The translations under genes and the position numbers were made by a program. Of a stretch of DNA of 64,000 nt, positions 1-55,238 are shown piece by piece. The DNA lies in assembly GCA_041662745.1 (NCBI GenBank), contig JBAZRV010000004.1:6315-70314 (forward strand). Direction: 5' to 3'. Position 1 is the first letter of the stretch, and the number at the start of each line of letters is the position of its first letter. The notes beneath the pieces were generated by a model. The model was not told the origin of the DNA. It saw nothing but the letters and a program-made list of their open reading frames with translations, and did not search any database. The DNA is from Patescibacteria group bacterium (GTDB lineage Bacteria; Patescibacteriota; Patescibacteriia; 2-01-FULL-39-33).

Positions 1-168
1 TGTTGTAATTTAATACAAATAGCATAAAATTATTATCAAAAAACTCTAATTTTAGATAAAATTTACATTTTCCTCAATAACTATCGATTTTCAGCTCTTG
101 ACAAAATTTTGACGATATGCTATAATTACCTATTAAAATAGTTCATTAAAGCAGTGTAAATTAATATG

Positions 169-292
169 AGGCGAGCGCTTTGCAGGCCATAAATAATGGT
201 TTTCAGAGCGCTCGCCTCATTCCGGGGCAAAAGCCGCCAGTCCGAGCGATTCGGGCAAGTCAGCAGTACCAATCAAGAAAGGAAGGTATGCC
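169..292 (+). promoter_or_regulatory. Conserved 5' leader hairpin of DGR target gene A (GAGGCGAGCGCTTT...AGAGCGCTCGCCTCATTCCGGGGCAA). A paralogous leader precedes gene B at 1227-1290. A candidate -10 CTATAATTACC lies at about 120.
   Basis: A 14-bp stem followed by the conserved single-stranded tail TCATTCCGRGRCAA is present upstream of both paralogs. The stem sequences differ but the structure is kept, which looks like compensatory change. Confidence 0.35.
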
Positions 293-1066
293 ATGGGTAA
301 TCCCACGGTGAGCCGTACCCTGTCGGTACACAAGGAACACGAAGTATTATTGAAACTGGAAGCCGCCGGCCTCGATGACGATCTGGCCCAAAAAGTCATT
401 GACTCCAAAGACAACGACTTGGCCATGAAAGTCATCCGGCTGATTCAGAACGGCGGATTCGAAGCGACCACGAGCCAGAAACGCGCCCGCGAAATCATGG
501 GCACGAACATGTTCGGCGTCGAGGAAGCTATCCTCCATTTCGGCGTCAATCCCAGCAAAGCGCAACTGGCCGCTCTCTCCGAGATTCCGTTCTCCGAGGC
601 GGTACTCGCTCAATGCAAAGACACGCACGTTTTGGTGGCAATCTTCCCGCTGTCCATCCTGGAGATCCGCGGCAAGGTAAAGCGCGGTCTGTTCTACAGC
701 TACGAGGACTCCTGGTATAACAAACAGTCGTTCGCGAAAGACCGCGGCGAAGTGGGTTGGCAACTCGTGCGCAAAACGCCGGTTGACAACTCAACGGCGA
801 AGAACTGGACGGAACAGCAAGCGTTGCTGGGCAAGGAAGACGAGACGCCGACCGCCCAGGTTCTGGCCTACACCATCATCGGGCATTTCCTGGCCACAGG
901 CGAACGGCTGTTCGAAAAGATCTACGTCCGTACGTCCACTGTGGTTTTGGTCGGCGGCCGCGTCCACCTCGGCTTCTTCGATGCTGCCGGCCTCGGGGTC
1001 TACGGCCGCTGGGCTGACGATCGCCATGGCGCTCTGGCCGTCTCCTCCGCCCGGAAGTCCAACTGA
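293..1066 (+). CDS. DGR target protein A, 257 aa, of unknown fold. Its C-terminal 38 codons are the variable repeat VR1a.
   Basis: Complete ORF whose 3' end (940-1054) aligns with TR1 (2522-2636). Every mismatch falls at a TR adenine. It is a paralog of the 1370-2149 ORF, sharing the REIMGTNMFGVEEA...GWQLVRKTPV core. Confidence 0.75.
   Translation: MGNPTVSRTLSVHKEHEVLLKLEAAGLDDDLAQKVIDSKDNDLAMKVIRLIQNGGFEATTSQKRAREIMGTNMFGVEEAILHFGVNPSKAQLAALSEIPFSEAVLAQCKDTHVLVAIFPLSILEIRGKVKRGLFYSYEDSWYNKQSFAKDRGEVGWQLVRKTPVDNSTAKNWTEQQALLGKEDETPTAQVLAYTIIGHFLATGERLFEKIYVRTSTVVLVGGRVHLGFFDAAGLGVYGRWADDRHGALAVSSARKSN
940..1054 (+). repeat. DGR variable repeat VR1a
   Basis: 115-bp near-copy of TR1. Differences occur only where TR1 has A, for example TR AAC vs VR GGC/CAC/TTC. 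The 3' GC-rich end GGCCGTCTCCTCCGCCCGG is identical in TR1 and both VRs, consistent with an IMH-like element. Confidence 0.8.
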
Positions 1067-1078
1067 ACCTTGAATCTT

Positions 1079-1140
1079 TGAGGGCTTGACCCTCTTGATT
1101 CCTTGAGCCTTCGGCGCGAATTTTTTTCGTCGCCGAAGGC
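1079..1140 (+). promoter_or_regulatory. Hairpin pair downstream of VR1a: GAGGG-CTTGA-CCCTC and GCCTTCGGCG...CGCCGAAGGC. It may be a DGR-associated stem-loop and/or a terminator. The same pair recurs at 2162-2222 after VR1b.
   Basis: Inverted repeats read directly from the sequence. The same structure occurs after both VR-bearing genes. Confidence 0.4.
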
Positions 1141-1369
1141 TCACTTCTTTCCTACTATAACCATTGATAGTTTAATAATATTAGTAATTGTCCCTTAAAA
1201 TAAATGTGATAAAAAAATAGATTGAAATGAGCGTTTTGGATGCCAAAGAATTTTGGTTTCTAAAACGCTCGTCTCATTCCGAGACAAGACGTAACAACGG
1301 GATCGTATTCCCATTTCTAGTCGCCCCAAACAAAAAAAACAAGGGGCTAACAGAAAAGGAGCACATACC

Positions 1370-2149
1370 ATGAAGTGGACAGAAATCCTTGCAGGAGAAT
1401 TGCATGCAGCCGAGCAACGCCTCAGGGTCGCCTTGGGCGACAAGGCCAGCGAAGTTGTCGAGAAAATCAACAGCGATGCCGCTTTTGCGGACTCGGTCGC
1501 CGCGCAAATCATTATGATGGCGGGCGAGGCTGACAAAAGTTCCACCAGCTTGAACCCGCAATGGTTGCGCGCCCGCGAAATCATGGGCACGAATATGTTC
1601 GGCGTCGAAGAAGCCATGAAGCATTTCGGCGTCAATCCCAGCAAAGCACAGCTCGCCGCTCTCGCCGAGATTCCCTTCTCGGAGGCAGTGCTCGAACAGT
1701 GCAAGAACACGCATGTCCTGGTTGCGGTCTTTCCGCTGTCGATTCTCGACATCCGGAGCAAGGCCAATGTCAAGAAGCTGTTCTACGACCAGTCGTGGTA
1801 CAATGGCGAGTCCTTCGCCAAAAGCCGCGGCAAGATCGGCTGGCAACTCGTGCGCAAAACGCCGGTTAGCAACTCAACGTCAAAGAATTGGAGCGAACAG
1901 CAAGCTCTGATCAGTCAAGACGATGAAACGCCGACCGCCCAGGTTCTGGCCTACACCATCATCGGGCATTTCCTGGCCACGGGTGAACGGCTGTTCGAAC
2001 GCATTTACGTCCGTACATCGTCTGTGGGTTCGGGCGGCAGCCGCGTCCCCCTCGGCGACTTCGCTGCTGCCGGCCTCCGGGTCTACGGCAGCTGGGATGA
2101 CCATCGCGATGGCGATCTGGCCGTCTCCTCCGCCCGGAAGTCCAACTGA
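1370..2149 (+). CDS. DGR target protein B, 259 aa, a tandem paralog of target A. Its C-terminal VR1b spans 2023-2137.
   Basis: The core is about 80% identical to ORF 293-1066, with a divergent N-terminal 65 aa. The 3' 115 bp match TR1 with about 16 substitutions, all at TR adenines. Confidence 0.75.
   Translation: MKWTEILAGELHAAEQRLRVALGDKASEVVEKINSDAAFADSVAAQIIMMAGEADKSSTSLNPQWLRAREIMGTNMFGVEEAMKHFGVNPSKAQLAALAEIPFSEAVLEQCKNTHVLVAVFPLSILDIRSKANVKKLFYDQSWYNGESFAKSRGKIGWQLVRKTPVSNSTSKNWSEQQALISQDDETPTAQVLAYTIIGHFLATGERLFERIYVRTSSVGSGGSRVPLGDFAAAGLRVYGSWDDHRDGDLAVSSARKSN
2023..2137 (+). repeat. DGR variable repeat VR1b
   Basis: Same structure as VR1a. All mismatches against TR1 are at A positions: AAC-AAC-AAC in TR1 becomes TAC-GGC-AGC. 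Confidence 0.8.
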
Positions 2150-2521
2150 ACCTTGAATCTTTGAGGGCTTGACCCTCTTGATTCCTTGAGCCTTCGGCGC
2201 GAATTTTTTCGCAATGCCGGAGGCTTATTTTCTTTTTAAACTATTTTTTGCTATAATTATTTTGTTCGCTAATGCAGGCGCGGTTACGGCTTCGCCTCGC
2301 GGACAGCTCATCTTTTTGAGACGTCACCAGAGTATCGCCGTCCACGGATTGCGATAGCGTGTGATAAAAAGATTGAGATGGAACTTCTTGCCCGCTCTTA
2401 GTGGAGGTGATCTTACGCTATCTGCTCCCGAATAAAATACAGGAGAGAAAGGACATAGGCCTGTTTTTTAATAGGCAGTAAACCTTAATTTCCAGTGATC
2501 CTGGCGAGAGCTGGCAAATAA

Positions 2522-2636
2522 TGTGGATTCGGACGGCAACCGCGTCAACCTCGGCAACTTCGATGCTACCGGCCTCAAGGTCAACAACAACTGGGATGAC
2601 AATCGCAATGGCGATCTGGCCGTCTCCTCCGCCCGG
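2522..2636 (+). repeat. DGR template repeat TR1, the 3' remnant of a third copy of the target gene. It is noncoding and asparagine(AAC)-rich in the target reading frame.
   Basis: Translates as DSDGNRVNLGNFDATGLKVNNNWDDNRNGDLAVSSAR, with AAC codons at every position that varies in VR1a and VR1b. The upstream gene body is degraded and no start codon remains. A hairpin AACACCCTCCTG-TTAC-AGGAGGGTGTT follows at 2659-2686. Confidence 0.8.
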
Positions 2637-2700
2637 CACTTCCATCTTTTCTTACTAAAACACCCTCCTGTTACAGGAGGGTGTTTCCATTTATTATGGC

Positions 2701-3348
2701 CTACAATTCCTTAGTTGACTTAATCCAGCCGCCGAGCATTCGGCCGACTTCATCGACATCCTGTTGCAATGTCACGTACTTATTAGCCGCTAAGGATTTA
2801 GTTTCTTTCATCAGCCGCAAGAATATCCTGAGGAAATTCAGCTTTAAGCTGGCTTTTTGCAAAACCGGCAGCTTGTCTGTTTTGGACAGCTGGCTGGCCA
2901 GCAATATGCTTTCCAAAATATCCAACAGGACATTTTCACAGCGCTGCCACAAAGTGTAGCGGTCTTGCTTAGCCACGCTTTTCCTGAGGATATAAAATTG
3001 CTTGTAGAGATCATAGATTTTTTTAAAGATCGGTATGTCAAAATCTTCCATATAATTATGAAAATTTATAAAGATATTTATAATGAGATGATTTCCCTGG
3101 AGAATTTGTTTTCCGCCTGGGATAAGTTCAAGATTGGCAATTTTTGCTGGAGTTGGATTTTCCTGATCAATGCTATAATAATTATTATATGCGATTAAAA
3201 CTAAACGCCCATCATCACCCCTTAATATTTTTAAAAGACCCAACTCTTGGTCAAGAATAATCTGACCTACAAGATTAAATTCAGTTATTTCGAATGATAC
3301 AAATTCATCCATATAATTATAATTAATACCTGTATTGAATATTACCAA
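2701..3348 (-). CDS. avd: Avd-like four-helix-bundle protein (23S rRNA IVS protein family) with an in-frame 99-aa N-terminal extension. The Avd module probably starts at the internal Met (2701-3051).
   Basis: The C-terminal 116 aa (IFKKIYDLYKQFYILRKS...DEVGRMLGGWIKS) resemble the four-helix-bundle/Avd family. It is paralogous to ORF 52348-52869 (NEIGRMLGGWRKR). It lies convergent with and immediately downstream of TR1. Confidence 0.6.
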   Translation of the reverse strand: MVIFNTGINYNYMDEFVSFEITEFNLVGQIILDQELGLLKILRGDDGRLVLIAYNNYYSIDQENPTPAKIANLELIPGGKQILQGNHLIINIFINFHNYMEDFDIPIFKKIYDLYKQFYILRKSVAKQDRYTLWQRCENVLLDILESILLASQLSKTDKLPVLQKASLKLNFLRIFLRLMKETKSLAANKYVTLQQDVDEVGRMLGGWIKSTKEL

Positions 3349-3460
3349 AAAATCGCCATTTAGGCGATTTTATTTAGCTAACAAAATAATATACATATAC
3401 TATTTGAGTCGCCCCACCATCATAGGACGGTGAGTCGGCTCCGATACTTAGTTCTACTAC

Positions 3461-3562
3461 CGGTGTGTTTACAAAAAAATTCGAACCGATTTCACCCCCA
3501 AAAATTGATGAGCGGGCGGATTTCCTCCCCCAACCCCTCCATCCGCCCGCCCTTTCGGATTT
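3461..3562. repeat. Inverted repeat IR-A, left arm of a perfect 102-bp pair. The right arm is 5069-5174.
   Basis: An exact reverse-complement match of about 102 bp (GGTGTGTTTACAAAAAAATTCGAACCGATTTCACCCCCAAAAATTGATGAGCGGGCGGATTTCC...) flanks the HTH and 378-aa genes. Confidence 0.85.
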
Positions 3563-3569
3563 GCGATTT

Positions 3570-4706
3570 TCAGTTTTTCTTTGGCGACAAATTCTTTTTT
3601 TCTAGCATTCTTACCACCTTAAAATCCGTAGTGATTATTGGAATATTACTTGGTATGACATCTAATATTTCTTGTGGTATCTGCTCAATATCTTTGTTGA
3701 TAACAACCGCTACAAAATCTTTCGGTGATATATTACCAATTACTCCCATATCACCCTCACTATTTTCTAATGGCCCTAGAGTATGATGTTTGTTTGGGAC
3801 TTTAAATAAAATTGATAAATCATCCCAAAAGTATTTTTTCATCTCACCGGTTTGTTCATAATCGCTTTTTACTAACTCTGGTGGATAGGTTGAAATCATG
3901 TTGGTTCCAAAAAGTAAATCCGCCATATTCCTAAAGGGGTCATCATATATTTCGAAATCCTCTTTATTTTTAGGCTCCCATCGGCTTCTCCAATTTTCCT
4001 TTTTCAAACGTTCAAATGCAAACTTAGCTAGAGGTGAACTAAAAAAATATGTCTTTATAGACTGATACACCTTATCAGTTGTTTCTTTTTTTCTTTCATC
4101 TCTTATTTCTGGCGTAACCAATAACCAGTCTTGAGCGTAATCTTCTTGTATCGTTTCAATCAAGATATTTGAAAATTCATCGCTGTTTACCATTTCGTCG
4201 TAACTTATGCTATCTAAATTAGCTCCATCGTGAACCCTTTTGTCTAAAAAGATCGACATTGCGCGAATCATCGATTTGCCAAGCTTTCCCCGCTCATGTT
4301 GTACTTCTGGACCATAGCCACCAATAGGAAAATTAACAGCATAACCCTCTTTTTGTAATCGAATTTTCCGATGGCTCAAAATTCCTTGCCCAAAATAACT
4401 TTTTAATTTATTTAAAAGTTCCTCTATTCGCACAATATCTTTTTCATTACGATCTTCAGGCGCTGCATTCAACATCTTAATTAGTCCTCCTACGAATCTA
4501 TAGCCACTGTGCTGAGCAACCTTCCTATCGGAAATTAATTGTTTAATTTCTTCAATTAATATTCTCTCATTTTCTTCTCTTTCATTATTATTTAAATCAG
4601 GACTTTCTCCGCTCATTAGCCCATCAAAACCCGCCTCATTTTCAGTTGGATACTCAAGGCCTTGAATAAAATCTTCTTCTTGTTTTGGTTGCTCGAGTTT
4701 TGGCAT
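3570..4706 (-). CDS. Hypothetical protein, 378 aa, acidic, with no recognisable motifs. It is cargo of the IR-A cassette.
   Basis: Complete ORF directly downstream of the HTH gene, with a 5-bp gap between them. It has no RT or nuclease signature I can recognise. Confidence 0.5.
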   Translation of the reverse strand: MPKLEQPKQEEDFIQGLEYPTENEAGFDGLMSGESPDLNNNEREENERILIEEIKQLISDRKVAQHSGYRFVGGLIKMLNAAPEDRNEKDIVRIEELLNKLKSYFGQGILSHRKIRLQKEGYAVNFPIGGYGPEVQHERGKLGKSMIRAMSIFLDKRVHDGANLDSISYDEMVNSDEFSNILIETIQEDYAQDWLLVTPEIRDERKKETTDKVYQSIKTYFFSSPLAKFAFERLKKENWRSRWEPKNKEDFEIYDDPFRNMADLLFGTNMISTYPPELVKSDYEQTGEMKKYFWDDLSILFKVPNKHHTLGPLENSEGDMGVIGNISPKDFVAVVINKDIEQIPQEILDVIPSNIPIITTDFKVVRMLEKKNLSPKKN

Positions 4707-4711
4707 ATTTG

Positions 4712-4924
4712 TTATTTTATTAAATCATCAACCGTAACCCCTAACCCTTTGGCAATTTTTGCCATAGTTTCAATCGTGGGATTGGGCGTAGCCCCCGATT
4801 CAATTTTAATTATTACATTATAAGCAATATCAGCCCTTTTCGAAAGTCCATCTTGAGAAATACCTAGTTTATCTCGGCATTTTTTAATATTCCTGGCTAT
4901 TGTTGGCAATTCACTTTGTTTCAT
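4712..4924 (-). CDS. XRE-family helix-turn-helix transcriptional regulator, 70 aa
   Basis: ARNIKKCRDKLGISQDGLSKRADIAYNVIIKIESG is a typical HTH_XRE (Cro/C1) motif. It sits upstream of and is co-oriented with the 378-aa ORF. Confidence 0.7.
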   Translation of the reverse strand: MKQSELPTIARNIKKCRDKLGISQDGLSKRADIAYNVIIKIESGATPNPTIETMAKIAKGLGVTVDDLIK

Positions 4925-5068
4925 AGTATAATTATACTAGTATAGTAGTTAAACAAGTTTTACTACTATAACTTTATCAAAATTCATGGATTTTATCAAT
5001 AATTTTTTTAAGCCCGCTTTTGGCCAAAATGAAGTTCGAGCCGATATTTTTTCCAGGTTCTTTGGCGG

Positions 5069-5174
5069 TTTTCAATCCGAAAGGGCGGGCGGATGGAGGG
5101 GTTGGGGGAGGAAATCCGCCCGCTCATCAATTTTTGGGGGTGAAATCGGTTCGAATTTTTTTGTAAACACACCG
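5069..5174. repeat. Inverted repeat IR-A, right arm
   Basis: Reverse complement of 3461-3562. It abuts and overlaps by 3 nt the left arm of IR-B. Confidence 0.85.
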
Positions 5175-5258
5175 CCAATCGGTATTTGCCCAATTTTCGG
5201 GCAGAAGTTTCAGAATTCGCCAACCAGTTTTGGCCTGAAATTCAAATTTTTTGGCTTC
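5172..5258. repeat. Inverted repeat IR-B, left arm of a perfect 87-bp pair. The right arm is 6683-6769.
   Basis: CCGCCAATCGGTATTTGCCCAATTTTCGGGCAGAAGTTTCAGAATTCGCC...GGCTTC matches the reverse complement exactly at 6683-6769. Confidence 0.85.
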
Positions 5259-5320
5259 TGATTCTTAAAGAATTGCCAAAAGCGGGCTTTAAAAAAATTA
5301 TTAGTTTTAATCTTAAATAT

Positions 5321-6823
5321 ATGAAGTACTTTATTTACGCTCGCAAGTCCACTGACAGCGAAGAACGGCAGATCTTAAGCATTGAATCCCAGATTGCTGA
5401 GTTGTATGAATTTGCCGCCAAAGAAAAACTGGAAATCGCCGCTTCGCTGTGCGAAGCGAAAACCGCCAAAGAACCTGGCCGAACTGTGTTCGGAGAAATG
5501 CTGGATCGGATTTGCGCCGGCGAAGCCGGAGGAATTTTGGCTTGGCACCCGGATCGGCTGGCTAGAAATTCAATTGACGGAGGCAAAATCATTTATCTTT
5601 TGGACACAGGCCAGATCAAAGACCTAAAGTTTCCCACATTTTGGTTTGACAGCACACCGCAAGGAAAATTCATGATGAACATTGCCTTTGGCCAAAGCAA
5701 GTATTACATCGACAATTTAAGCGAGAATATACGGCGAGGCCATCGGGCTAAACTAAGAAAAGGGATTTGGCCAGTCTTTGCCCCGCTTGGCTATCTAAAT
5801 AATCACAGGACCAAAGGCATAGAATTAGACAGGGAAAGGGCGCCTTTGGTCAAAAAATGCTTTGAGCTATACGCTACGGGCGAATATACCCTCAAAGCCC
5901 TAAGAGATGTAATCAGCCAAGCGGGGCTAAGAAGCTACCGAGGCAATGTTCTGGCCGTGGCCTGTGTCCAAAGAATGCTCAAGAACTCGATCTACTATGG
6001 CCTATTCAAATTTAACGACGAATTGCATGAGGGAACGCACGAGCCGATTATTTCCAAGAAACTTTTTGATGAAGCTCAACAAGTAATGAGTAATCGAGGC
6101 AAGAAGAAACGAAAGCGAAAACACGAATTTGCTTTTTCTGGATTAATGAAATGTGGGGTCTGCGATTGCCTCATAACGGCGGAAAAACAAAAAGGCCATA
6201 ATTACTATCGTTGCACCAAGAAAAAACAAACCTGCGACGAAAAATGTCTGCGCGAAGAATTACTTGTTGAACAGATGAAAGAGATAATTCAAAAAGTTTC
6301 TTTGCCTGACGATTGGGCAAAAAATATGCTCGCCGAGATTGAGTTGGAACGAGAACAAGCAAGAAAAGACGGCATGATTTTTGGGCAAAAACTGGAAGTG
6401 AGAAAAACAGAAATCGAGCAAACCATGGAACGACTGCTTGATTTGTTTATTGAAGGCAAGCATATCGAGCCAGAGGAATATCACGCTAAAAAACAAAAAC
6501 TTCTCATCGAGAAGTGTGAGCTTAATCAACAAATCAAGGATTTTGCCCAAAAAGGAAATAATTGGCTCGAACCCATGAAAGAAATGATTTTAGCCAGCAG
6601 CCAAGCCAAAATTCTATTGTCGCGAGGCGACAATTCGCAAATCCGAGCATTTCTAAAAAATATCGGCTCGAACTTCATTTTGGAAGCCAAAAAATTTGAA
6701 TTTCAGGCCAAAACTGGTTGGCGAATTCTGAAACTTCTGCCCGAAAATTGGGCAAATACCGATTGGCGGAGAGAGAGGGATTCGAACCCTCGGTACGCCC
6801 ATAATAGACGTACAACGGTTTAG
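5321..6823 (+). CDS. Large serine recombinase: resolvase/invertase catalytic domain, recombinase domain and zinc ribbon. The C-terminus is encoded within IR-B and the tRNA-Ser 3' end.
   Basis: N-terminal YARKSTDSEERQILSIESQ...HPDRLARN is a serine-recombinase catalytic motif. CGVCDC...YYRCTKKK is a Zn ribbon. The ORF reads through the IR-B right arm into the tRNA. Confidence 0.8.
   Translation: MKYFIYARKSTDSEERQILSIESQIAELYEFAAKEKLEIAASLCEAKTAKEPGRTVFGEMLDRICAGEAGGILAWHPDRLARNSIDGGKIIYLLDTGQIKDLKFPTFWFDSTPQGKFMMNIAFGQSKYYIDNLSENIRRGHRAKLRKGIWPVFAPLGYLNNHRTKGIELDRERAPLVKKCFELYATGEYTLKALRDVISQAGLRSYRGNVLAVACVQRMLKNSIYYGLFKFNDELHEGTHEPIISKKLFDEAQQVMSNRGKKKRKRKHEFAFSGLMKCGVCDCLITAEKQKGHNYYRCTKKKQTCDEKCLREELLVEQMKEIIQKVSLPDDWAKNMLAEIELEREQARKDGMIFGQKLEVRKTEIEQTMERLLDLFIEGKHIEPEEYHAKKQKLLIEKCELNQQIKDFAQKGNNWLEPMKEMILASSQAKILLSRGDNSQIRAFLKNIGSNFILEAKKFEFQAKTGWRILKLLPENWANTDWRRERDSNPRYAHNRRTTV
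6683..6769. repeat. Inverted repeat IR-B, right arm. It overlaps the 3' end of tRNA-Ser by 6 nt.
   Basis: Exact reverse complement of 5172-5258. Confidence 0.85.
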
Positions 6824-6858
6824 CAAACCGCCGCCTTCAGCCACTCGGCCATCTCTCC
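6764..6858 (-). tRNA. tRNA-Ser (anticodon GCU) with a long variable arm
   Basis: The reverse complement reads GGAGAGATGGCCGAGTGGCTGAAGGCGGCGGTTTGCTAAACCG...GGGTTCGAATCCCTCTCTCTCCGCCA. The anticodon loop is TT-GCT-AA, and CCA is encoded. Confidence 0.8.
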
Positions 6859-6917
6859 AAACAACACGACTTGCTTATTCTATCATAAAACCATACTTAT
6901 TGTAAAGCCCTCCCGAA

Positions 6918-28116: not shown

Positions 28117-29163
28117 TTAAGTTGAAGTTGCTGTTGAAGAAACTATGCGCTTTTCTAATTGGCTGATGAACACCTGTTTCAATTCATCATCGCCAATGGT
28201 GTCCAAAATAACGCTATCACCGCCGGATTTAATCAGGATCTGCCTGATTTGCGCGCCGGACAGCTGTTTAAAATCAGCCATAGTGGTAACGCCGAATGAC
28301 TCCAAATTAACATTGGCCCAACCGCTCGTAGCGGTAGCTAAAGCATCAACGGTCAAATCTGTTTGGTTAACTAAAGCATCATCAACGCCCAAATCTCCGC
28401 CAATGGCGTAAGAAGAAAAAACTGTCGGATCAATCAGGCCGTATTGCTGCAATTGTTGCGCCATAGTCGGATTATTCTGCAAATATTGAGCAAAAGTCTG
28501 CATTAATTCATCATCGGTGGTATCGGCCAGATCCTGATCGCTAATGCCGCTGCTTTTTAGCATCTGTCTGATAATATCCGGAGTCAAAGCCGAATAATTG
28601 TTGGTCTGGCCGGCAGTTGCCGTTAGGGGCGCCGAATCAGTGGAACCGGATGGCAAGACGCCGGTATCGGAAGGGCTGGCAGTAGAATCCATGGTAGGCA
28701 ATCCCGTACATTTTTGGCCTTGCGGACAGTTCGGATCAGTCCCCCTATCCACCTCAATTTTATCGTTAAGGCCGTCGGAATCGCTGTCTTTAAGATAGGG
28801 ACTGGTATGATAAACGCTTAATTCAAGATTATCAGCCAGGCCATCGGCGTCGGTATCGCGGGTCATCATGTCCCTTATTTGCGCTTGTTGCAAAGCTAAC
28901 CTCTCCGCGCGGGATTTATTACCGGCCTTAACTATATCTTGAAAAGGATTTTGGCTGGCGAAAAAAAACTGCCAAAAACCAAAAACAAGGGCCATTAACC
29001 CGATTGCCGCGATTAAAACTGTATGCATTTTTTCCTTGCCGGTAAGCGATTTACCTAAGCTTGAGTCATTGCCTGAAGCGGGGGTATCGCCCACTTCCAG
29101 ATTCTTCAAGTAATCAGCTTCTTTATCTTCACTTATCGGCCGGGGTTGTTCACTACCTTCCAT
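28117..29163 (-). CDS. Membrane-anchored protein with thrombospondin-type-3-like Ca-binding repeats, 348 aa
   Basis: A TM helix (LIAAIGLMALVFGFWQFFF) is followed by the DTDADGLAD and DSDSDGLND repeats. Confidence 0.45.
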   Translation of the reverse strand: MEGSEQPRPISEDKEADYLKNLEVGDTPASGNDSSLGKSLTGKEKMHTVLIAAIGLMALVFGFWQFFFASQNPFQDIVKAGNKSRAERLALQQAQIRDMMTRDTDADGLADNLELSVYHTSPYLKDSDSDGLNDKIEVDRGTDPNCPQGQKCTGLPTMDSTASPSDTGVLPSGSTDSAPLTATAGQTNNYSALTPDIIRQMLKSSGISDQDLADTTDDELMQTFAQYLQNNPTMAQQLQQYGLIDPTVFSSYAIGGDLGVDDALVNQTDLTVDALATATSGWANVNLESFGVTTMADFKQLSGAQIRQILIKSGGDSVILDTIGDDELKQVFISQLEKRIVSSTATST

Positions 29164-29318
29164 TAGAGGTGTGGATAAGTTATGTATTAATTATACCACA
29201 AAATCGTTTTCGTAAAAAGATTTATACTAGAACATTTAAAGAATGAATAAATCAAGGAAACGAAAAAACAACAATCACCCGTTTTGTTGCCTTACTGTTT
29301 GAGCATTATCTCGTTTGG

Positions 29319-51422: not shown

Positions 51423-52481
51423 TTAGCAAGTATAAGCCAAATTAGCAATTTTTCGTTGTAACTTATAGCTCTGGCCGTGACTCAATAAACCCAAATATGA
51501 ATTTATGGTCTCCAAACTATGGTTTCCTCTCACTCGCCTGAACATTCTTCTTTTACTCGTCGTCCGAAACACCCGATGGTCAAAAAAAGTCACCCAGCCA
51601 AGAAAGTCCAAACCGGAGTTCAGGGTTTTAATGAATAACTTATCAGGATGAAGCATCAGCTTCATTTTATCTCTCAAATATTCATCAATTATTGGAATAA
51701 TATTTTCCAAATATTCTTTATCGTCAGCCATAATCACGAAATCATCGGCATAACGGATATAATGCTTGACTTGCAATTTATGTTTGACGAATTGATCAAA
51801 CTTGTTCATGTAAATATTAACCAAGAGTTGTGAGGTCAGATTGCCTAATGGCAGACCCCTACCACCGCCATTATTCCCACTCTCCCTCTTGTCATTCCCG
51901 CGGAGACGGGAATCCAGGTTATCTTCAATATTATCAAAACTGTCAATTACTTCATCCAATAATCCTAAAATACTTTTATCCGGGATATACTCGGCCAGAA
52001 TCTCTTTCAATATCCTATGGTCAATATTGGCAAAAAATTTCCTGATGTCACCCTTCAAAATCCAGCAAGTGCGGGTATTATTTTTGCTGGCGGCATAAGC
52101 GAATTCCCTGAACCGAGCCAGGGCCTTGTGCGTGCCCTTGCCCAGTCGGCAAGAATAGGAATCGGCAATGAAAGTCCGATCAAAAAACGGATACAAAATC
52201 CGATAAATCGCATGGTGAACCAATCTATCGCGGACAGACGCCTTATGAATTTGCCGCGGTTTGGGATCGCAGATCTTAAAGGCCTGGTAGCCGCCGTGGC
52301 GATAAACACCGGTTGCCAAATACCGATGCAATGCGATAAGATTATCCATGAGGCGCAATTGGAATTCCTGCGCGTCTTTTCTGCCCCTTTTGCCCCTGAC
52401 AAATTCCTGCCAAGCCAATAATAAATTATCAAGACAAATAATATCTTCAAAAGTATGGCTCAATTTGATTTTCCCGTTCAT
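51423..52481 (-). CDS. Diversity-generating retroelement (DGR) reverse transcriptase. It contains an in-frame MITE-like insertion.
   Basis: YADD box (YIRYADDFVIM). Motif 4 is LGNLTSQ, the DGR-type I/LGxxxSQ rather than the group II QGxxxSP. SYSCRLGKGTHKAL motif. There is no room for intron domains V/VI. TR, avd and VR are adjacent. RBS AAAGGA precedes the ATG at 52481. Confidence 0.75.
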   Translation of the reverse strand: MNGKIKLSHTFEDIICLDNLLLAWQEFVRGKRGRKDAQEFQLRLMDNLIALHRYLATGVYRHGGYQAFKICDPKPRQIHKASVRDRLVHHAIYRILYPFFDRTFIADSYSCRLGKGTHKALARFREFAYAASKNNTRTCWILKGDIRKFFANIDHRILKEILAEYIPDKSILGLLDEVIDSFDNIEDNLDSRLRGNDKRESGNNGGGRGLPLGNLTSQLLVNIYMNKFDQFVKHKLQVKHYIRYADDFVIMADDKEYLENIIPIIDEYLRDKMKLMLHPDKLFIKTLNSGLDFLGWVTFFDHRVFRTTSKRRMFRRVRGNHSLETINSYLGLLSHGQSYKLQRKIANLAYTC

Positions 52482-52869
52482 AATAATTCCTTTAATTACC
52501 CCCCCCCCGACGGAAGATTTATCAATCATCAAAAAACTCGTTGAGACCTTTAAGCTCTGGCACGGCTATGTAAAGCATTTCCCCAAAACCTCCCGCTATT
52601 CGTTGGGCGGAAAAATAGACGGCCTGTTTTCTGATCTGATTGAATCGGCATACACCGCCGGCTATCTGCCCCAAACGGAAAAACTGCCGTTCATAGAAAA
52701 ATCCATCGACAAACTGAATTTGCTTAATTTTTTTATGCAAATCGCCTGGGAGCTGAAGGCGTTTGACAACAACAAATACAAAAATATTTCCTTATTGCTT
52801 AATGAAATCGGCCGAATGCTGGGCGGCTGGCGCAAACGGATAAAAAAAGAAACTTCCGCCCCAAAATAA
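52348..52869 (+). CDS. avd: Avd-like four-helix-bundle protein. The functional start is probably near 52515; no ATG is in frame there, so a non-canonical start or frameshift is possible.
   Basis: The C-terminal 115 aa (IKKLVETFKLWHGY...NEIGRMLGGWRKRIKK) resemble the four-helix-bundle/Avd family. It is located between the RT and TR2. Confidence 0.55.
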   Translation: MRRNWNSCASFLPLLPLTNSCQANNKLSRQIISSKVWLNLIFPFIIIPLITPPPTEDLSIIKKLVETFKLWHGYVKHFPKTSRYSLGGKIDGLFSDLIESAYTAGYLPQTEKLPFIEKSIDKLNLLNFFMQIAWELKAFDNNKYKNISLLLNEIGRMLGGWRKRIKKETSAPK

Positions 52870-52889
52870 CCGGGCGGAAGAATGGAGAG

Positions 52890-53020
52890 ATTTGCGGAAA
52901 CAAACGCGAAACGGTTGTCGCTATTGTAGAAATTGTCAGGCCTGCCATTGTTGGCATTAAGCCACGGCTCATCGTCATTACGTTTGACGTTGAACACATT
53001 CGGGTTGCCGTCCGAGTCGG
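52890..53020 (-). repeat. DGR template repeat TR2
   Basis: 131 bp, about 80% identical to 53352-53482. In the target frame it encodes NDDEPWLNANNGRPDNFYNSDNRFAFVSAN, rich in AAC codons. About 25 mismatches to the VR, all at TR adenines on the minus strand. Confidence 0.85.
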
Positions 53021-53342
53021 TTAAATGTCCAAAACGCCGCCAAAACCACCGCCCCTTGATCCGCCGGCTGACGGACTCTCGGGACTGAATCTTATCCGTG
53101 AGCTAAACTCACTTAGCGCCTTAGACCAAGTATCTTCATTTTTAGCAATTATAATTGATACTGGCAAAAGGCGTGCCCGTTGCCACTCCGCAAATTATAA
53201 TTGCAGAATTCGATCATCCGAAGCCGTAACCGCAGATATGTCAATCTACTATCCTAAATATATTTTAACAAACAAAAATAAAAATAAAAAGGAATTAAGG
53301 GTTTAAGGATTAAAGAATAACAATACTTAAGATTTTAAGGAT

Positions 53343-55238
53343 TTAAGTGTTACTTGCGGAAACAAACGCGAAACGGCTGACGCCATAGTAGAAACGGCCA
53401 GGCCCGCCACAGTAGGCACCAAGCCACGGCTCACCGCCACTACGCTCGACGTCGAACACACTCGGGTCGCCGCCCGAGCCGGAAATTGGTTCCATACCGA
53501 TTAAAATCCATTCGCCCAGCGGTTGGTCAGTATATTGTAAACGAAGCTGGGGGCCGGTTTCCGGCGGGCAGAATTCTAAGCCGAGTTTCTTGGCTTGTTC
53601 GTAAATATCCTTGAGCTTGGCGCCGCCTTTGAAACCCAAATCCGCAACAGCCAAGATAATTAACTTTTCTTTGGTTTCTTTTTTGGCCACGGCAAATTCC
53701 GGCTTGCCCATTATGTCTTTGGCCCAATCACTGGTCTGCCCGCCTTTTTTCTCTATGGCTTTAATGAAATCATCTTTGGTTTTTAGTCCGGTGCCCAGTT
53801 CAATGGTTTTCTGTTTGATTCGGCCCTCGGGGAATTCAGTGTAAATATGTTCCAGGTTTGAGGGCAATAGTTTGAAGATGTTGAGGAATAATTCGCCGAC
53901 ATAGACCTTAATGTCTTTTTCTTGTTTAAGCGCTTGCTCTAATTCCTGTTTGTTGTGGATAATCTGGCTCGGTTTGCAGTCAAAAATTACGAGCATGTCG
54001 GCATTCTTGTCCCGTTGACCCCGCAGTTCTTTGATGCGCGGATCTTTCTGGTAGCCAAAGCCCTCAATCGGCGAATTTATTTCGTAAAGGAAGATGAGAT
54101 CTTCTTTGTCTAATGACTTACCTTGCCGGATTTTCTTATCCAGAGCGGTTAAGCGGCTCATGTCCTGCGATTTCTTCTCGTAGCTCTCATGTCCGGGCAG
54201 AGTTCTGGCTTTATCTTGGGCGATATCCACTAAAGCCGGTTCAAGATTTTGTTCCGCATTAATACCCCCAATTTCAGCTATTTGATCATTCTGCATTCTG
54301 ATGGCGATGCGGGGAATCTTAGGTTGGCCTTGATCATTATTGCTGTAATACACATAAAAATCGCCTTCTTTTAATTGCGCCTGGGCCGTGCTTTCTCCGG
54401 CCGTGCACCAGCCCGTGCCGTGGCCTTGGAGTGACTGGCATAGTTTTTGGTAGTCGTCGCCTTGATCGTATTTGACCCATTGGCCCTGGATATTTTCCTT
54501 TTGCTCTTGGCTGGCGGGGGTAACTTTTTCAATGGCATAGGCGTAAAGCTTGGCGAAATTGGCGCCTTCCAGTATTTTGCCCAGTTCTGCATTGATTGGC
54601 GAAGACGCGTTATCCACACCATGCCGTTTATTGACAATATCCAAAACCAAAGCCAAGGCCTCGCGGTTAAGATCGGGAAAAACGCCCCGAGTGAATTGGC
54701 TGCGTTTTTTGAATTCGTGCTTCTGCTTATCAAATTCAGCCAGGCCAGTCACGGAACGAAGGGCAAAATACTTGAGCCAAGTCGGATACATGGCATCTTC
54801 CGACGACAGGTAATCAAACCAGTTGCTTAAGCCGGCCTCCTGGTCTTTGACCGCGGATTCCAAAATCTGCTCCTGCATTTCCCGGGTTACTTCAATATCG
54901 CCATGGCCTTGTTCGCGGGCGACGCGCTTGTCCAAATCAAAAAAATTACCCGGTAAATCGTCAATGGTTTTATGGCGCAAGGGAATGGCCGAATCTAGGA
55001 TTTTATTCTTAAGGTAATCCAACCTGAATTCCCTAAGATTTTGGCCCTTGAGATATTCCTCTTCCGGCGTAGAAAAAATTTCCTCCAAACGATCCAGGTA
55101 AGTGCCAAGTCGGCCTTCCGGAGTATTAGCGACTTTTTCGCCGACACGGATTTTTTTGCGCGCTGAAGCAGACGCCACTTCTGGAGTTTTTTGCAGATCT
55201 TCAAATTTATTATGGAGAAAACGTTCTGGGGAGGGCAT
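53343..55238 (-). CDS. DGR target protein, 631 aa, with a C-terminal C-type-lectin/FGE-like variable domain and no signal peptide
   Basis: Complete ORF. The last 45 codons are the VR. The C-terminal ...GxxRxxxGxSRFAFV pattern is typical of DGR CLec-fold targets. Confidence 0.7.
   Translation of the reverse strand: MPSPERFLHNKFEDLQKTPEVASASARKKIRVGEKVANTPEGRLGTYLDRLEEIFSTPEEEYLKGQNLREFRLDYLKNKILDSAIPLRHKTIDDLPGNFFDLDKRVAREQGHGDIEVTREMQEQILESAVKDQEAGLSNWFDYLSSEDAMYPTWLKYFALRSVTGLAEFDKQKHEFKKRSQFTRGVFPDLNREALALVLDIVNKRHGVDNASSPINAELGKILEGANFAKLYAYAIEKVTPASQEQKENIQGQWVKYDQGDDYQKLCQSLQGHGTGWCTAGESTAQAQLKEGDFYVYYSNNDQGQPKIPRIAIRMQNDQIAEIGGINAEQNLEPALVDIAQDKARTLPGHESYEKKSQDMSRLTALDKKIRQGKSLDKEDLIFLYEINSPIEGFGYQKDPRIKELRGQRDKNADMLVIFDCKPSQIIHNKQELEQALKQEKDIKVYVGELFLNIFKLLPSNLEHIYTEFPEGRIKQKTIELGTGLKTKDDFIKAIEKKGGQTSDWAKDIMGKPEFAVAKKETKEKLIILAVADLGFKGGAKLKDIYEQAKKLGLEFCPPETGPQLRLQYTDQPLGEWILIGMEPISGSGGDPSVFDVERSGGEPWLGAYCGGPGRFYYGVSRFAFVSASNT
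53352..53482 (-). repeat. DGR variable repeat VR2 at the 3' end of the 631-aa target gene
   Basis: Encodes SGGEPWLGAYCGGPGRFYYGVSRFAFVSAS. Every difference from TR2 is at an adenine-templated position. The 3' 23 nt (TTGCGGAAACAAACGCGAAACGG on the plus strand) are identical in TR and VR, consistent with an IMH. Confidence 0.85.

What the first reader, a model, noticed from the sequence alone, without database searches (positions are those of the whole stretch)
293..3348. Second DGR locus with two tandem paralogous targets sharing one TR and an Avd, but no adjacent RT
Two tandem paralogous genes, 293-1066 and 1370-2149, each end in a 115-bp VR (940-1054 and 2023-2137). Both VRs are templated by one TR at 2522-2636, which is the 3' remnant of a degraded third gene copy. 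About 16 substitutions separate each VR from the TR, and all fall at TR adenines. The TR AAC-AAC-AAC triplet becomes TAC-GGC-AGC in one VR and TAC-GGC-CGC in the other. An Avd-like gene follows on the opposite strand, the same TR-then-reversed-avd layout seen at locus 2. No RT lies between this avd and the window start. The only RT in 64 kb is 48 kb away at locus 2. TR1 and TR2 both begin with TCGGACGGCAACC, which suggests one RT may serve both TRs in trans. Alternatively the cognate RT lies just upstream of the window, or was displaced by the IR-flanked cassette inserted at 3461.
Basis: partly seen in the sequence, partly recalled or inferred. Interest (0 to 1): 0.85.

Follow-up and report, generated by a model that had tools for sequence, protein, structure and literature searches.

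The report
DGR cassette with truncated reverse transcriptase
This is a protein-hypermutation cassette (two target genes, one template, one helper gene) in a Patescibacteria genome; its own reverse transcriptase gene has been cut down to 27 codons by a rearrangement, so the variable regions are most likely frozen relics rather than evidence that a distant enzyme serves two templates.

Summary
The sequence observation holds. VR1a (940-1054) and VR1b (2023-2137) both match TR 2522-2636. VR1a has 20 mismatches and VR1b has 16; 35 of the 36 fall at TR adenines (P about 1e-15 and 1e-13). A bAvd gene (2701-3051, minus strand) follows.

Six bases beyond the avd start codon, on the plus strand, lie the first 27 codons of the cognate RT (3058-3140). 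They are 93% identical to the intact 349-aa RT of closely related contigs. Homology to those contigs stops exactly at 3140|3141, where unrelated DNA leads into a recombinase/tRNA-Ser island.

So locus 1 is a normal Patescibacteria-type DGR (target, structured leader RNA, TR, reversed avd, RT) that lost its RT. No RT lies in the 6.4 kb upstream of the window.

The 13-mer shared by TR1 and TR2 is a family-wide coding feature and is not evidence for a shared RT. Both TRs are preceded by homologous structured leader RNAs, but these belong to two RNA sub-families that track the RT/Avd sub-families (RTs 43% identical, Avds 36%). Trans service by RT2 is neither excluded nor supported (about 0.15).

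RT-disrupted DGR loci have been described before. Interest is modest.

The parts
98..126 (+). Perfect sigma-70-like promoter (TTGACA-17-TATAAT, TG extended) upstream of target 1. A 5'UTR hairpin follows at 166-220.
293..1066 (+). Target gene 1 (257 aa, WC668_03235). No Pfam domain.
940..1054 (+). VR1a. It has 20 mismatches to the TR, 19 of them at TR adenines. The GC-rich, A-free 3' end (IMH-like) is at 1036-1054.
1080..1142 (+). Post-VR hairpin GAGGG-CTTGA-CCCTC (1080-1094), then a terminator-like hairpin (1105-1142). Related loci keep both hairpins at this place, with different stem sequences.
1370..2149 (+). Target gene 2 (259 aa, WC668_03240), a paralogue of target 1.
2023..2137 (+). VR1b. 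It has 16 mismatches to the TR, all at TR adenines. The IMH-like 3' end is at 2119-2137.
2163..2226 (+). Post-VR hairpin (2163-2177) and terminator-like hairpin (2188-2226).
2249..2257 (+). TGCTATAAT, an extended -10-like element just upstream of the leader RNA. That this is the promoter of the leader-TR RNA is inferred.
2267..2518 (+). Structured leader RNA immediately 5' of the TR: 11 helices, 62 pairs. It matches the family covariance model R1 at 200 bits, E 4e-55.
2522..2636 (+). Template repeat TR1 (25 A in 115 nt). It is 115/115 identical to the TR of the RT-bearing relative L091. The IMH*-like end is at 2618-2636.
2640..2686 (+). TR-downstream elements. TTCCATCT (2640-2647) is complementary to the leader segment AGATGGAA (2376-2383). 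A stem-loop follows at 2658-2686 (13 pairs counted), whose sequence differs but whose stem is kept in related loci. It is a candidate Avd-binding stem-loop and also a bidirectional terminator.
   Evidence: literature
2701..3051 (-). avd1 (116 aa, bAvd PF22296). The ORF is intact and 97% identical to the Avd of L011.
3058..3140 (+). Stub of the cognate RT gene: ATG plus the first 27 codons (MKIYKDIYNEMISLENLFSAWDKFKIG). The ORF then reads 19 unrelated codons to a stop at 3198.
3141..3460 (.). Unrelated AT-rich DNA (32% GC) joined to the RT stub at 3140|3141. No match was found outside the RT-less contigs.
3461..6858 (.). Context of the truncation. Two abutting segments are each bounded by perfect inverted repeats: 3461-3561/5074-5174 (101 nt) and 5172-5258/6683-6769 (87 nt). 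They carry a 378-aa ORF, an HTH protein and a large serine recombinase, and end at tRNA-Ser 6764-6858.
51423..55238 (-). Locus 2, the only complete DGR in the window and the candidate trans donor. On the minus strand: target 53343-55238, VR2 53354-53482, leader RNA 53026-53246, TR2 52892-53020, RT2 51423-52481. avd2 lies on the plus strand at about 52516-52869.

Best explanation
Locus 1 is an ordinary chromosomal DGR of the Patescibacteria type that has lost its enzyme.

The intact layout, seen in dozens of relatives, is: target gene(s) ending in a VR; a post-VR hairpin and terminator; a promoter; a ~250-nt structured leader RNA; the TR; a stem-loop; avd on the opposite strand; and the RT gene, which starts 3-13 nt beyond the avd start codon on the target strand.

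In working relatives the mechanism is inferred from the Bordetella phage model. The leader-TR RNA is bound by RT-Avd and copied into cDNA with misincorporation opposite adenines. The cDNA then replaces VR1a or VR1b.

In this genome a rearrangement joined codon 27 of the RT gene (3140) to unrelated DNA that leads into a recombinase/tRNA-Ser island. This removed more than 320 codons, including all catalytic motifs.

The adenine-specific VR/TR differences were therefore written by the cognate RT before the truncation. The cassette is now an orphan. Its promoter, leader, TR, IMH-like ends, hairpins and avd are still intact, which fits a recent loss. Its two VRs are most likely frozen.

Shown: the truncation, the intact state in close relatives, and the integrity of all the other parts. 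Inferred: that diversification has stopped.
For: The RT stub:
- Window 3058-3138 translates to the first 27 residues of the L011 RT at 92.6% identity (E 4.5e-11) and matches L006 (MKIYK..ISLENLF.AWDKFK).
- It sits in the syntenic place and strand of all intact relatives.

The breakpoint:
- Three related contigs (L011, L012, L091; 93-94% nt identity) align up to exactly 3140 and then continue into a full RT, while the window becomes unrelated.
- No RT remnant occurs elsewhere in the window except RT2, and none in the 6.36 kb upstream.
- The junction is present in the 137-kb NCBI MAG contig, in JGI contig L010 and in ENA contig L093.

The rest is intact:
- A-bias of the VR/TR mismatches.
- bAvd ORF.
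- Leader at 200 bits.
- TR 115/115 identical to L091, while the flanks are 94-97% identical.

Activity in RT-bearing relatives: with the same TR, VR1b differs among L090, L091 and L092 almost only at A sites (proteins). The window's VRs, in contrast, are identical in three assemblies.

RT loss recurs in the family:
- L012 has a frameshift.
- L023 is truncated at about residue 142.
- L068 is truncated at the C-terminus (292 aa).
- 14 of 15 RT genes carrying a (GA)n tract are out of frame.

Precedent: RT-disrupted DGR loci coexisting with intact variants in a population have been reported (PMC10907252).
Against: - No read-level data were available, so 'frozen' is inferred and not shown.
- The three assemblies with identical VRs may derive from one sample.
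- The perfect conservation of TR1, the intact avd ORF and the intact leader would also be expected if the cassette were still used.
- A second RT-less cassette ('HapB': a different 288-aa target and its own TR, 15/15 mismatches at A) is joined to a right arm that is 100% identical from about 2725 on, through avd, the RT stub and the island, in the same sample. RT-less cassettes may therefore be maintained or spreading.
- Only 64 kb of the window plus 6.4 kb upstream of the 137-kb contig were examined, and none of the other contigs of the MAG.
Confidence: 0.7

Rival explanations
1. Trans-complementation. RT2 of locus 2, 48 kb away, together with Avd2 or the surviving Avd1, binds the leader-TR1 RNA and keeps diversifying VR1a and VR1b. 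One RT would then serve two different TRs.
For: - RT2 is an intact ORF with RVT_1 and a YADD motif, and locus 2 shows 23/23 A-specific VR/TR mismatches.
- A covariance model built only from locus-1-type leaders of other genomes finds the region just upstream of TR2 (53026-53246, minus strand) full length at 49 bits, E 1.6e-12. The two template RNAs therefore share one fold, including an identical 12-nt loop in the first hairpin.
- avd1, the leader and TR1 are undamaged.
- In the Bordetella system avd, TR and brt work when supplied in trans from a plasmid, and remote targets are known (PMC5758913).
- Trans activity between DGR loci has been argued for Thiohalocapsa (PMC10907252).
Against: - The RT of L011, the closest intact stand-in for the lost cognate RT, is only 43.5% identical to RT2, and Avd1 is only 36% identical to Avd2.
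- Leader RNAs fall into two classes that follow the protein sub-family. Avd1-type loci score 120-269 bits full length. RT2-type loci score 28-62 bits (39 of 80 genomes). That is the pattern expected if RNA and proteins co-evolve.
- A sequence-only profile of locus-1 leaders does not detect the locus-2 leader at all.
- In the Bordetella RNP many specific RNA-protein contacts are essential (bioRxiv 10.1101/2023.10.23.563531).
- The published trans cases concern VRs that match the TR of the donor locus. Here VR1a and VR1b match only TR1.
- No VR polymorphism was seen for the RT-less haplotype.
Confidence: 0.15
2. The cassette is served by a cognate-type RT that lies somewhere not examined: further upstream than 6.4 kb, in the remaining ~67 kb of the contig, or on another contig of the genome (for example a second cassette of the same sub-family).
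For: - Patescibacteria genomes often carry several DGRs. Three GTDB contigs or genomes each gave two RT2-type loci in one scan, and L032 has two leaders and two RT matches.
- A second cassette of the same sub-family (HapB) exists in the same sample.
Against: - The cognate RT's position is known, and there it is a stub.
- HapB carries the same stub, and its target protein is not among the NCBI MAG's proteins.
- The intact-RT contig L011 belongs to a different MAG (Ca. Buchananbacteria, WCT26 locus tags).
- No RT in window 1-51000 or in L001.
Confidence: 0.07
3. Assembly artefact. The 3140|3141 junction is a chimeric join between strains or loci, and the real genome has a continuous RT gene.
For: - The sample holds several mosaic haplotypes of this region: L010, L011 and L093 switch similarity around 2722-2740.
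- Contigs break at the TR and inside the inverted repeat.
Against: - The same junction occurs in three assemblies made with different pipelines (NCBI MAG, JGI, ENA).
- In the alignments the window and the RT-bearing contigs agree up to 3140 and are unrelated from 3141 on, so no shared stretch spans the junction that could mislead an assembler.
- The 137-kb contig runs through it.
Confidence: 0.03

Closest known systems
Bordetella phage BPP-1 DGR (mtd-avd-TR-brt), the mechanistic prototype
   Same: - A TR copied into a VR at the 3' end of a target gene with adenine-specific changes.
- An Avd helper of the bAvd family.
- A GC-rich IMH-like end shared by VR and TR, followed by divergence.
- A hairpin downstream of the VR.
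- A stem-loop just 3' of the TR, and pairing between sequences upstream and downstream of the TR (literature).
   Different: - The gene order is target-TR-avd(reversed)-RT.
- The RNA 5' of the TR is a dedicated ~250-nt non-coding structured leader rather than the avd coding sequence.
- There are two tandem targets.
- The host is a chromosome of a Patescibacteria bacterium, not a phage.
- The RT is truncated here.
Patescibacteria (CPR) DGRs: 'DGR clade 2' of Roux et al. 2021 (PMC8144416)
   Same: - Cellular DGRs restricted to Patescibacteria, with targets that have no recognisable transmembrane or conserved domain.
- The window's target family has 1160 database relatives, nearly all unnamed Patescibacteria proteins without Pfam domains.
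- More than 80 related loci share the layout.
   Different: This copy has only a 27-codon RT stub. I did not place the RT in that paper's tree, so assignment to 'clade 2' rests on host and target properties only.
Incomplete or RT-disrupted DGR loci of Thiohalocapsa PB-PSB1 (Dore et al. 2024, PMC10907252)
   Same: A genome with several DGR loci, some lacking a working RT. Variants with an intact RT coexist in the population. The authors concluded that the diversity either predates the disruption or arises in cells with intact loci.
   Different: There, the loci argued to work in trans have VRs that match the TR of a complete DGR elsewhere. Here the orphan has its own private TR, so trans service would need a heterologous RT to accept a foreign template RNA.

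Membership tests
Diversity-generating retroelement (DGR) | A TR/VR repeat pair whose differences fall almost only at TR adenines | tested here: met
   35 of 36 differences are at A, and A makes up 25 of 115 TR positions; P 1.4e-15 and 1.4e-13.
Diversity-generating retroelement (DGR) | The VR lies at the 3' end of a protein-coding target gene | tested here: met
   VR1a ends 12 nt before the stop codon of 293-1066. VR1b ends 12 nt before the stop codon of 1370-2149.
Diversity-generating retroelement (DGR) | A DGR-type reverse transcriptase gene in the cassette | tested here: not met
   Only codons 1-27 remain (3058-3140); all RT motifs are gone. Close relatives have the full 349-aa gene at this place.
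Diversity-generating retroelement (DGR) | An accessory protein (Avd) | tested here: met
   PF22296 bAvd, E 1.4e-17, above the curated cut-off (64.6 vs 40 bits), for 2701-3051 on the minus strand.
Diversity-generating retroelement (DGR) | IMH at the VR end, IMH* at the TR end, and a hairpin after the VR but not at that place after the TR | tested here: met
   An identical GC-rich 19-mer (GGCCGTCTCCTCCGCCCGG) ends both VRs and the TR. The sequences diverge directly after it. The hairpin GAGGG-CTTGA-CCCTC follows both VRs, and relatives have a hairpin of different sequence at the same place. Function was not tested.
Diversity-generating retroelement (DGR) | Ongoing adenine-restricted VR variation in the population | not testable with these tools
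   No reads were available. The window haplotype has identical VRs in three assemblies. RT-bearing relatives with the same TR show different VR1b sequences.
Diversity-generating retroelement (DGR) | The variable region sits in a C-type-lectin-like (or Ig-like) ligand-binding fold | tested here: inconclusive
   The AlphaFold2 model has mean pLDDT 52.8, and about 30 over the VR domain. No Pfam hit above cut-off and no PDB sequence-profile hit.
DGR locus served in trans by a distal complete DGR | The VR matches the TR of the distal complete DGR at all non-adenine positions | tested here: not met
   VR1a and VR1b match TR1 only. TR2 shares just the first 13 nt and scattered codons with TR1.
DGR locus served in trans by a distal complete DGR | The template RNA carries the recognition elements of the distal RT-Avd | tested here: inconclusive
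   The overall leader fold is the same. However, TR1's leader scores 200 bits against its own class, while locus 2 and 39 RT2-type relatives score 28-62 bits. Which elements are recognised is unknown.
Any Rfam family (for the leader RNA) | A match at the gathering score | tested here: not met
   No Rfam family matches 2140-2720 at the gathering score; only noise appears at E up to 1.

The most novel reading that the evidence does not exclude
A heterologous RT is shared between DGR sub-families. RT2 (43% identical to the L011 RT, the closest intact stand-in for the lost cognate) would recognise the common leader-RNA fold and keep one or two orphan TR cassettes mutagenic (the window's, and perhaps 'HapB'). 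A genome could then discard redundant RT genes while keeping private templates.
Probability: 0.15. Interest if true: 0.7.

Novelty: new member of a known kind. Interest (0 to 1): 0.35.

Why it matters
The locus itself is a degenerate member of a known class.

Its value is as a natural experiment. The same TR (115/115 identical) sits next to a truncated RT in one lineage and next to an intact RT in close relatives from the same sample series, and a second complete DGR of another sub-family lies on the same contig. Read-level analysis of those metagenomes could therefore measure two things:
- What a DGR contributes to target variation.
- Whether a heterologous RT can rescue an orphan template.

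The work also exposed two family-wide features that bear on how these elements are built and controlled:
- A ~250-nt structured leader RNA directly 5' of the TR, supported by covariation and absent from Rfam.
- A (GA)n tract that puts many RT genes out of frame.

Tried and rejected
- Target relatives in viral contigs: none.
- Target fold: the AlphaFold2 model built from a 50-sequence alignment is too poor to search with (pLDDT 52.8). A profile search against PDB sequences gave nothing. Pfam gave only a sub-threshold Pdc1_Ge1 hit.
- Relatives of the 378-aa island protein in GTDB genomes: none.
- The island 3141-6860 against phage records: only the tRNA matches.
- The segment 3141-3460 has no match in any fetched locus apart from the RT-less contigs, so the donor of the DNA that replaced the RT was not identified.
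- A sequence-only nhmmer profile of the leader did not find locus 2. The covariance model did.
- Rfam: no family for the leader.
It was reached through a homology search instead.
- Rejected: the single non-adenine difference in VR1a as a sign of decay, because RT-bearing relatives show the same level.
- Rejected: high GC of the targets as a sign of foreign origin, because it is a property of the whole family.
- Rejected: the 15-mer GCGGTTACGGCTTCG shared by the two loci as a sign of co-adaptation. It is mostly the conserved loop of leader hairpin P1.


Full report
**Observation.** The repeat family 940-1054 / 2023-2137 / 2522-2636 is real.
- VR1a differs from the TR at 20 positions: 19 at TR adenines, plus one C>T at 2530.
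- VR1b differs at 16 positions, all at adenines.
- The TR has 25 A in 115 nt, so the chance probabilities are 1.4e-15 and 1.4e-13.
- Similarity between the TR and the genes stops at the VR 5' edge and, on the 3' side, right after a shared GC-rich 19-mer.
- The two target genes are paralogues: 77.6% identical over ~195 C-terminal residues, with unrelated N-termini.
- The gene on the opposite strand is a bAvd (PF22296, E 1.4e-17). Its true extent is 2701-3051 (116 aa), as in relatives.

In related genomes the layout is target, about 540 nt containing the TR, avd on the opposite strand, and then an RT of 349 aa on the target strand starting a few bases beyond the avd start codon (L006, L008, L009; survey of 84 loci).
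- In the window the same place holds ATG 3058 followed by MKIYKDIYNEMISLENLFSAWDKFKIG. This is the N-terminus of that RT: 92.6% identical to L011 over 27 residues, E 4.5e-11.
- After codon 27 the reading frame runs into 19 unrelated codons and a stop.
- Contigs L011, L012 and L091 are 93-94% identical to the window at the DNA level. They align up to exactly 3140 and then continue as RT genes, while the window continues with unrelated 32%-GC DNA.
- L011 belongs to another MAG (Ca. Buchananbacteria). The window is from NCBI MAG 'Patescibacteria group bacterium', locus tags WC668_03235 and WC668_03240.
- The junction is present in three assemblies.
- No other RT remnant exists in the window.
- The 6.36 kb upstream of the window (L001 and L002, both 100% identical to the window start) holds tRNA-Ser, two DNA methylases and terminase-like genes but no RT.
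- The cognate RT was therefore not upstream. It was next to avd and has been truncated.

**Right-hand context.**
- 3141-3460 has no relatives among anything fetched.
- Then come two abutting segments bounded by perfect inverted repeats of 101 and 87 nt. They carry a 378-aa ORF, an HTH protein and a large serine recombinase whose 3' end abuts tRNA-Ser.
- The upstream side is also mobile-element-like.
- The truncated cassette thus sits in an island of mobile-type genes, whereas the intact relative L011 is followed by purA and other housekeeping genes.
- I could not identify the event beyond the breakpoint.

**The rest of the cassette is intact.**
- Between the terminator of target 2 and the TR lies a ~250-nt RNA element that is conserved in the whole family.
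- An alignment of 28 relatives, which excludes the window, gives 62 base pairs in 11 helices. Of these, 41 pairs show compensatory double changes.
- 97.4% of cells are paired, against 38-48% when the partners are slid, and 0 of 500 shuffles reach the observed values.
- The covariance model finds the window's copy at 2267-2518 (200 bits). It also finds a copy in every family locus with enough upstream DNA, including many not used to build it (120-269 bits full length).
- A leader segment is complementary to the sequence just 3' of the TR (AGATGGAA/TTCCATCT in the window; GGATAGAG/CTCTATCC, with variants, in relatives). A stem-loop of variable sequence follows it.
- These recall the upstream-downstream duplex and the Avd-binding stem-loop described for the Bordetella DGR RNP (bioRxiv 10.1101/2023.10.23.563531). 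That correspondence is an inference.
- TR1 is 115/115 identical to the TR of the RT-bearing relative L091. The leader is 96.7% identical, avd 93.7% and the target-2 scaffold 95.6%.

**Is it still active?**
- In RT-bearing relatives with this same TR, VR1b differs between contigs from different samples almost only at adenine sites. One copy even carries an AAG>TAG stop.
- The window haplotype has identical VRs in the MAG and in JGI and ENA contigs. These may come from one sample, so this is weak evidence.
- One non-adenine difference per VR is also seen in RT-bearing relatives, so it is not a sign of decay.

**Trans service by RT2.**
- Locus 2 is a complete DGR with 23/23 adenine-specific differences.
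The motif encodes SDGN of the scaffold and is found at the TR start in most relatives.
- A better argument emerged. The model built from locus-1-type leaders finds the region just 5' of TR2 full length at 49 bits, E 1.6e-12. The two template RNAs are therefore homologous in fold.
- However, 80 genomes with RT2-type RTs (58-69% identical to RT2) give 28-62 bits at the equivalent place in 39 cases, against 120-269 bits for Avd1-type loci.
- A sequence-only profile misses locus 2 altogether.
- The RTs are 43.5% identical and the Avds 36%.
- RNA and proteins thus diverge together, which argues for matched partners.
- Published trans cases involve targets that match the donor's TR, not a foreign TR.
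- I put trans service at about 0.15.

**A complication.**
- In the same sample, a contig (L093, with L097) carries a different 288-aa target with its own TR (113 nt, 15/15 differences at adenines) and a leader of mosaic identity. It is joined to an avd, RT stub and island that are 100% identical to the window from about 2725 to 5150.
- Its target protein is not among the NCBI MAG's proteins.
- Either the RT-less right arm exists twice in one genome, or it has recombined onto another cassette in a second strain. The mosaic pattern around 2722-2740 shows recombination among these haplotypes. This is unresolved.

**Comparison and novelty.**
- The locus works like a DGR and meets the TR/VR, target, Avd and IMH criteria, but not the RT criterion.
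- It belongs with the Patescibacteria DGRs, whose targets lack known domains (PMC8144416).
- RT-disrupted DGR loci with intact variants in the same population have been described (PMC10907252).
- It is therefore a new, degenerate member of a known kind. The interpretation that made it look exciting is not supported.
- The target fold remains unknown.

Noticed in passing
window 2267-2518 and 53026-53246 (minus strand); loci L004-L093 and L099-L174: A ~250-nt structured RNA lies directly 5' of the TR in Patescibacteria DGRs. It has 62 pairs, 41 of them with compensatory changes, and no Rfam match. It occurs in two score classes that follow the RT/Avd sub-family (120-269 vs 28-62 bits). I found no description of it in the papers searched; the published RNA survey looked at only 40 nt upstream of TRs.
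   Followed up: yes
RT genes of L037, L038, L039, L042, L046, L052-L057, L062, L072, L078, L089, at about nt 550-560 of the ORF: 15 of 60 related RT genes carry a (GA)6-16 tract just before motif 4 (GxPIGNLTSQ). In 14 of the 15, the catalytic half is in another frame than the N-terminal half, whereas 41 of 45 genes without the tract are in frame. Tract length differs between otherwise near-identical loci (L037 vs L062). This looks like simple-sequence phase variation (ON/OFF) of a DGR RT, or recoding.
   Followed up: partly
window 51423-52481 (RT2), residues around DNLDSRLRGNDKRESGNNGGGRG: RT2 has an in-frame insertion of about 17 aa at the same site where relatives carry the (GA)n tract. Its DNA contains a small palindrome (ATTCCCG..CGGGAAT).
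   Followed up: no
L093/L096 (ENA ERZ27249449 k141_916926) and L097 (JGI Ga0172379_10090636): A second RT-less cassette ('HapB'). It has a different 288-aa target with its own TR (15/15 A-specific differences), joined to an avd, RT stub and island that are 100% identical to window ~2725-5150. Whether this is a second copy or a recombinant strain is unresolved.
   Followed up: partly
window 3461-3561/5074-5174 and 5172-5258/6683-6769; also 3563-3594/5408-5439: Two abutting segments are each bounded by perfect inverted repeats (101 and 87 nt). One holds a 378-aa ORF plus an HTH protein. The other holds a large serine recombinase whose 3' end overlaps tRNA-Ser. Contigs of two other assemblies end inside the second 101-nt arm. 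These may be invertible segments or nested element remnants; this is unexplained.
   Followed up: partly
L001 1-6360 (upstream of the window) and window 6764-6858: The cassette lies between two tRNA-Ser genes, each abutted by the 3' end of a serine recombinase ORF. Upstream are ParB-like/N6_N4 methylases and terminase small- and large-subunit-like genes. This suggests a prophage-like or integrative island around the DGR.
   Followed up: partly
window 293-2149 and the target genes of L006-L071: Target genes of this family are 10-19 GC points richer than their avd, RT and flanking DNA in every locus checked (window: 58% vs 43-45%).
   Followed up: partly
L091 1093-1207 (JGI Ga0172381_10068089): In an RT-bearing relative the assembled VR1b carries AAG>TAG at a TR adenine, which truncates the target protein. 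This is a nonsense product of adenine mutagenesis fixed in the consensus.
   Followed up: no
window 166-220 and ~1225-1290; L093 (reverse complement) ~355-415: All three target genes are preceded by a similar long 5'UTR hairpin (ATGAGGCGAGCGC ... GCGCTCGCCTCAT) downstream of a strong promoter. It may be a cis-regulatory element.
   Followed up: no
window 29068-29232 (minus strand): A weak third match to the leader-RNA model (14 bits, rough E 0.011), in an intergenic region with no TR or avd nearby. It is probably chance.
   Followed up: no
L012 (Ga0172371_10089183), L023, L068: Other relatives have damaged RT genes: a frameshift at residue 53, a truncation at about residue 142, and a C-terminal truncation at 292 aa. 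RT decay is recurrent in this family.
   Followed up: partly
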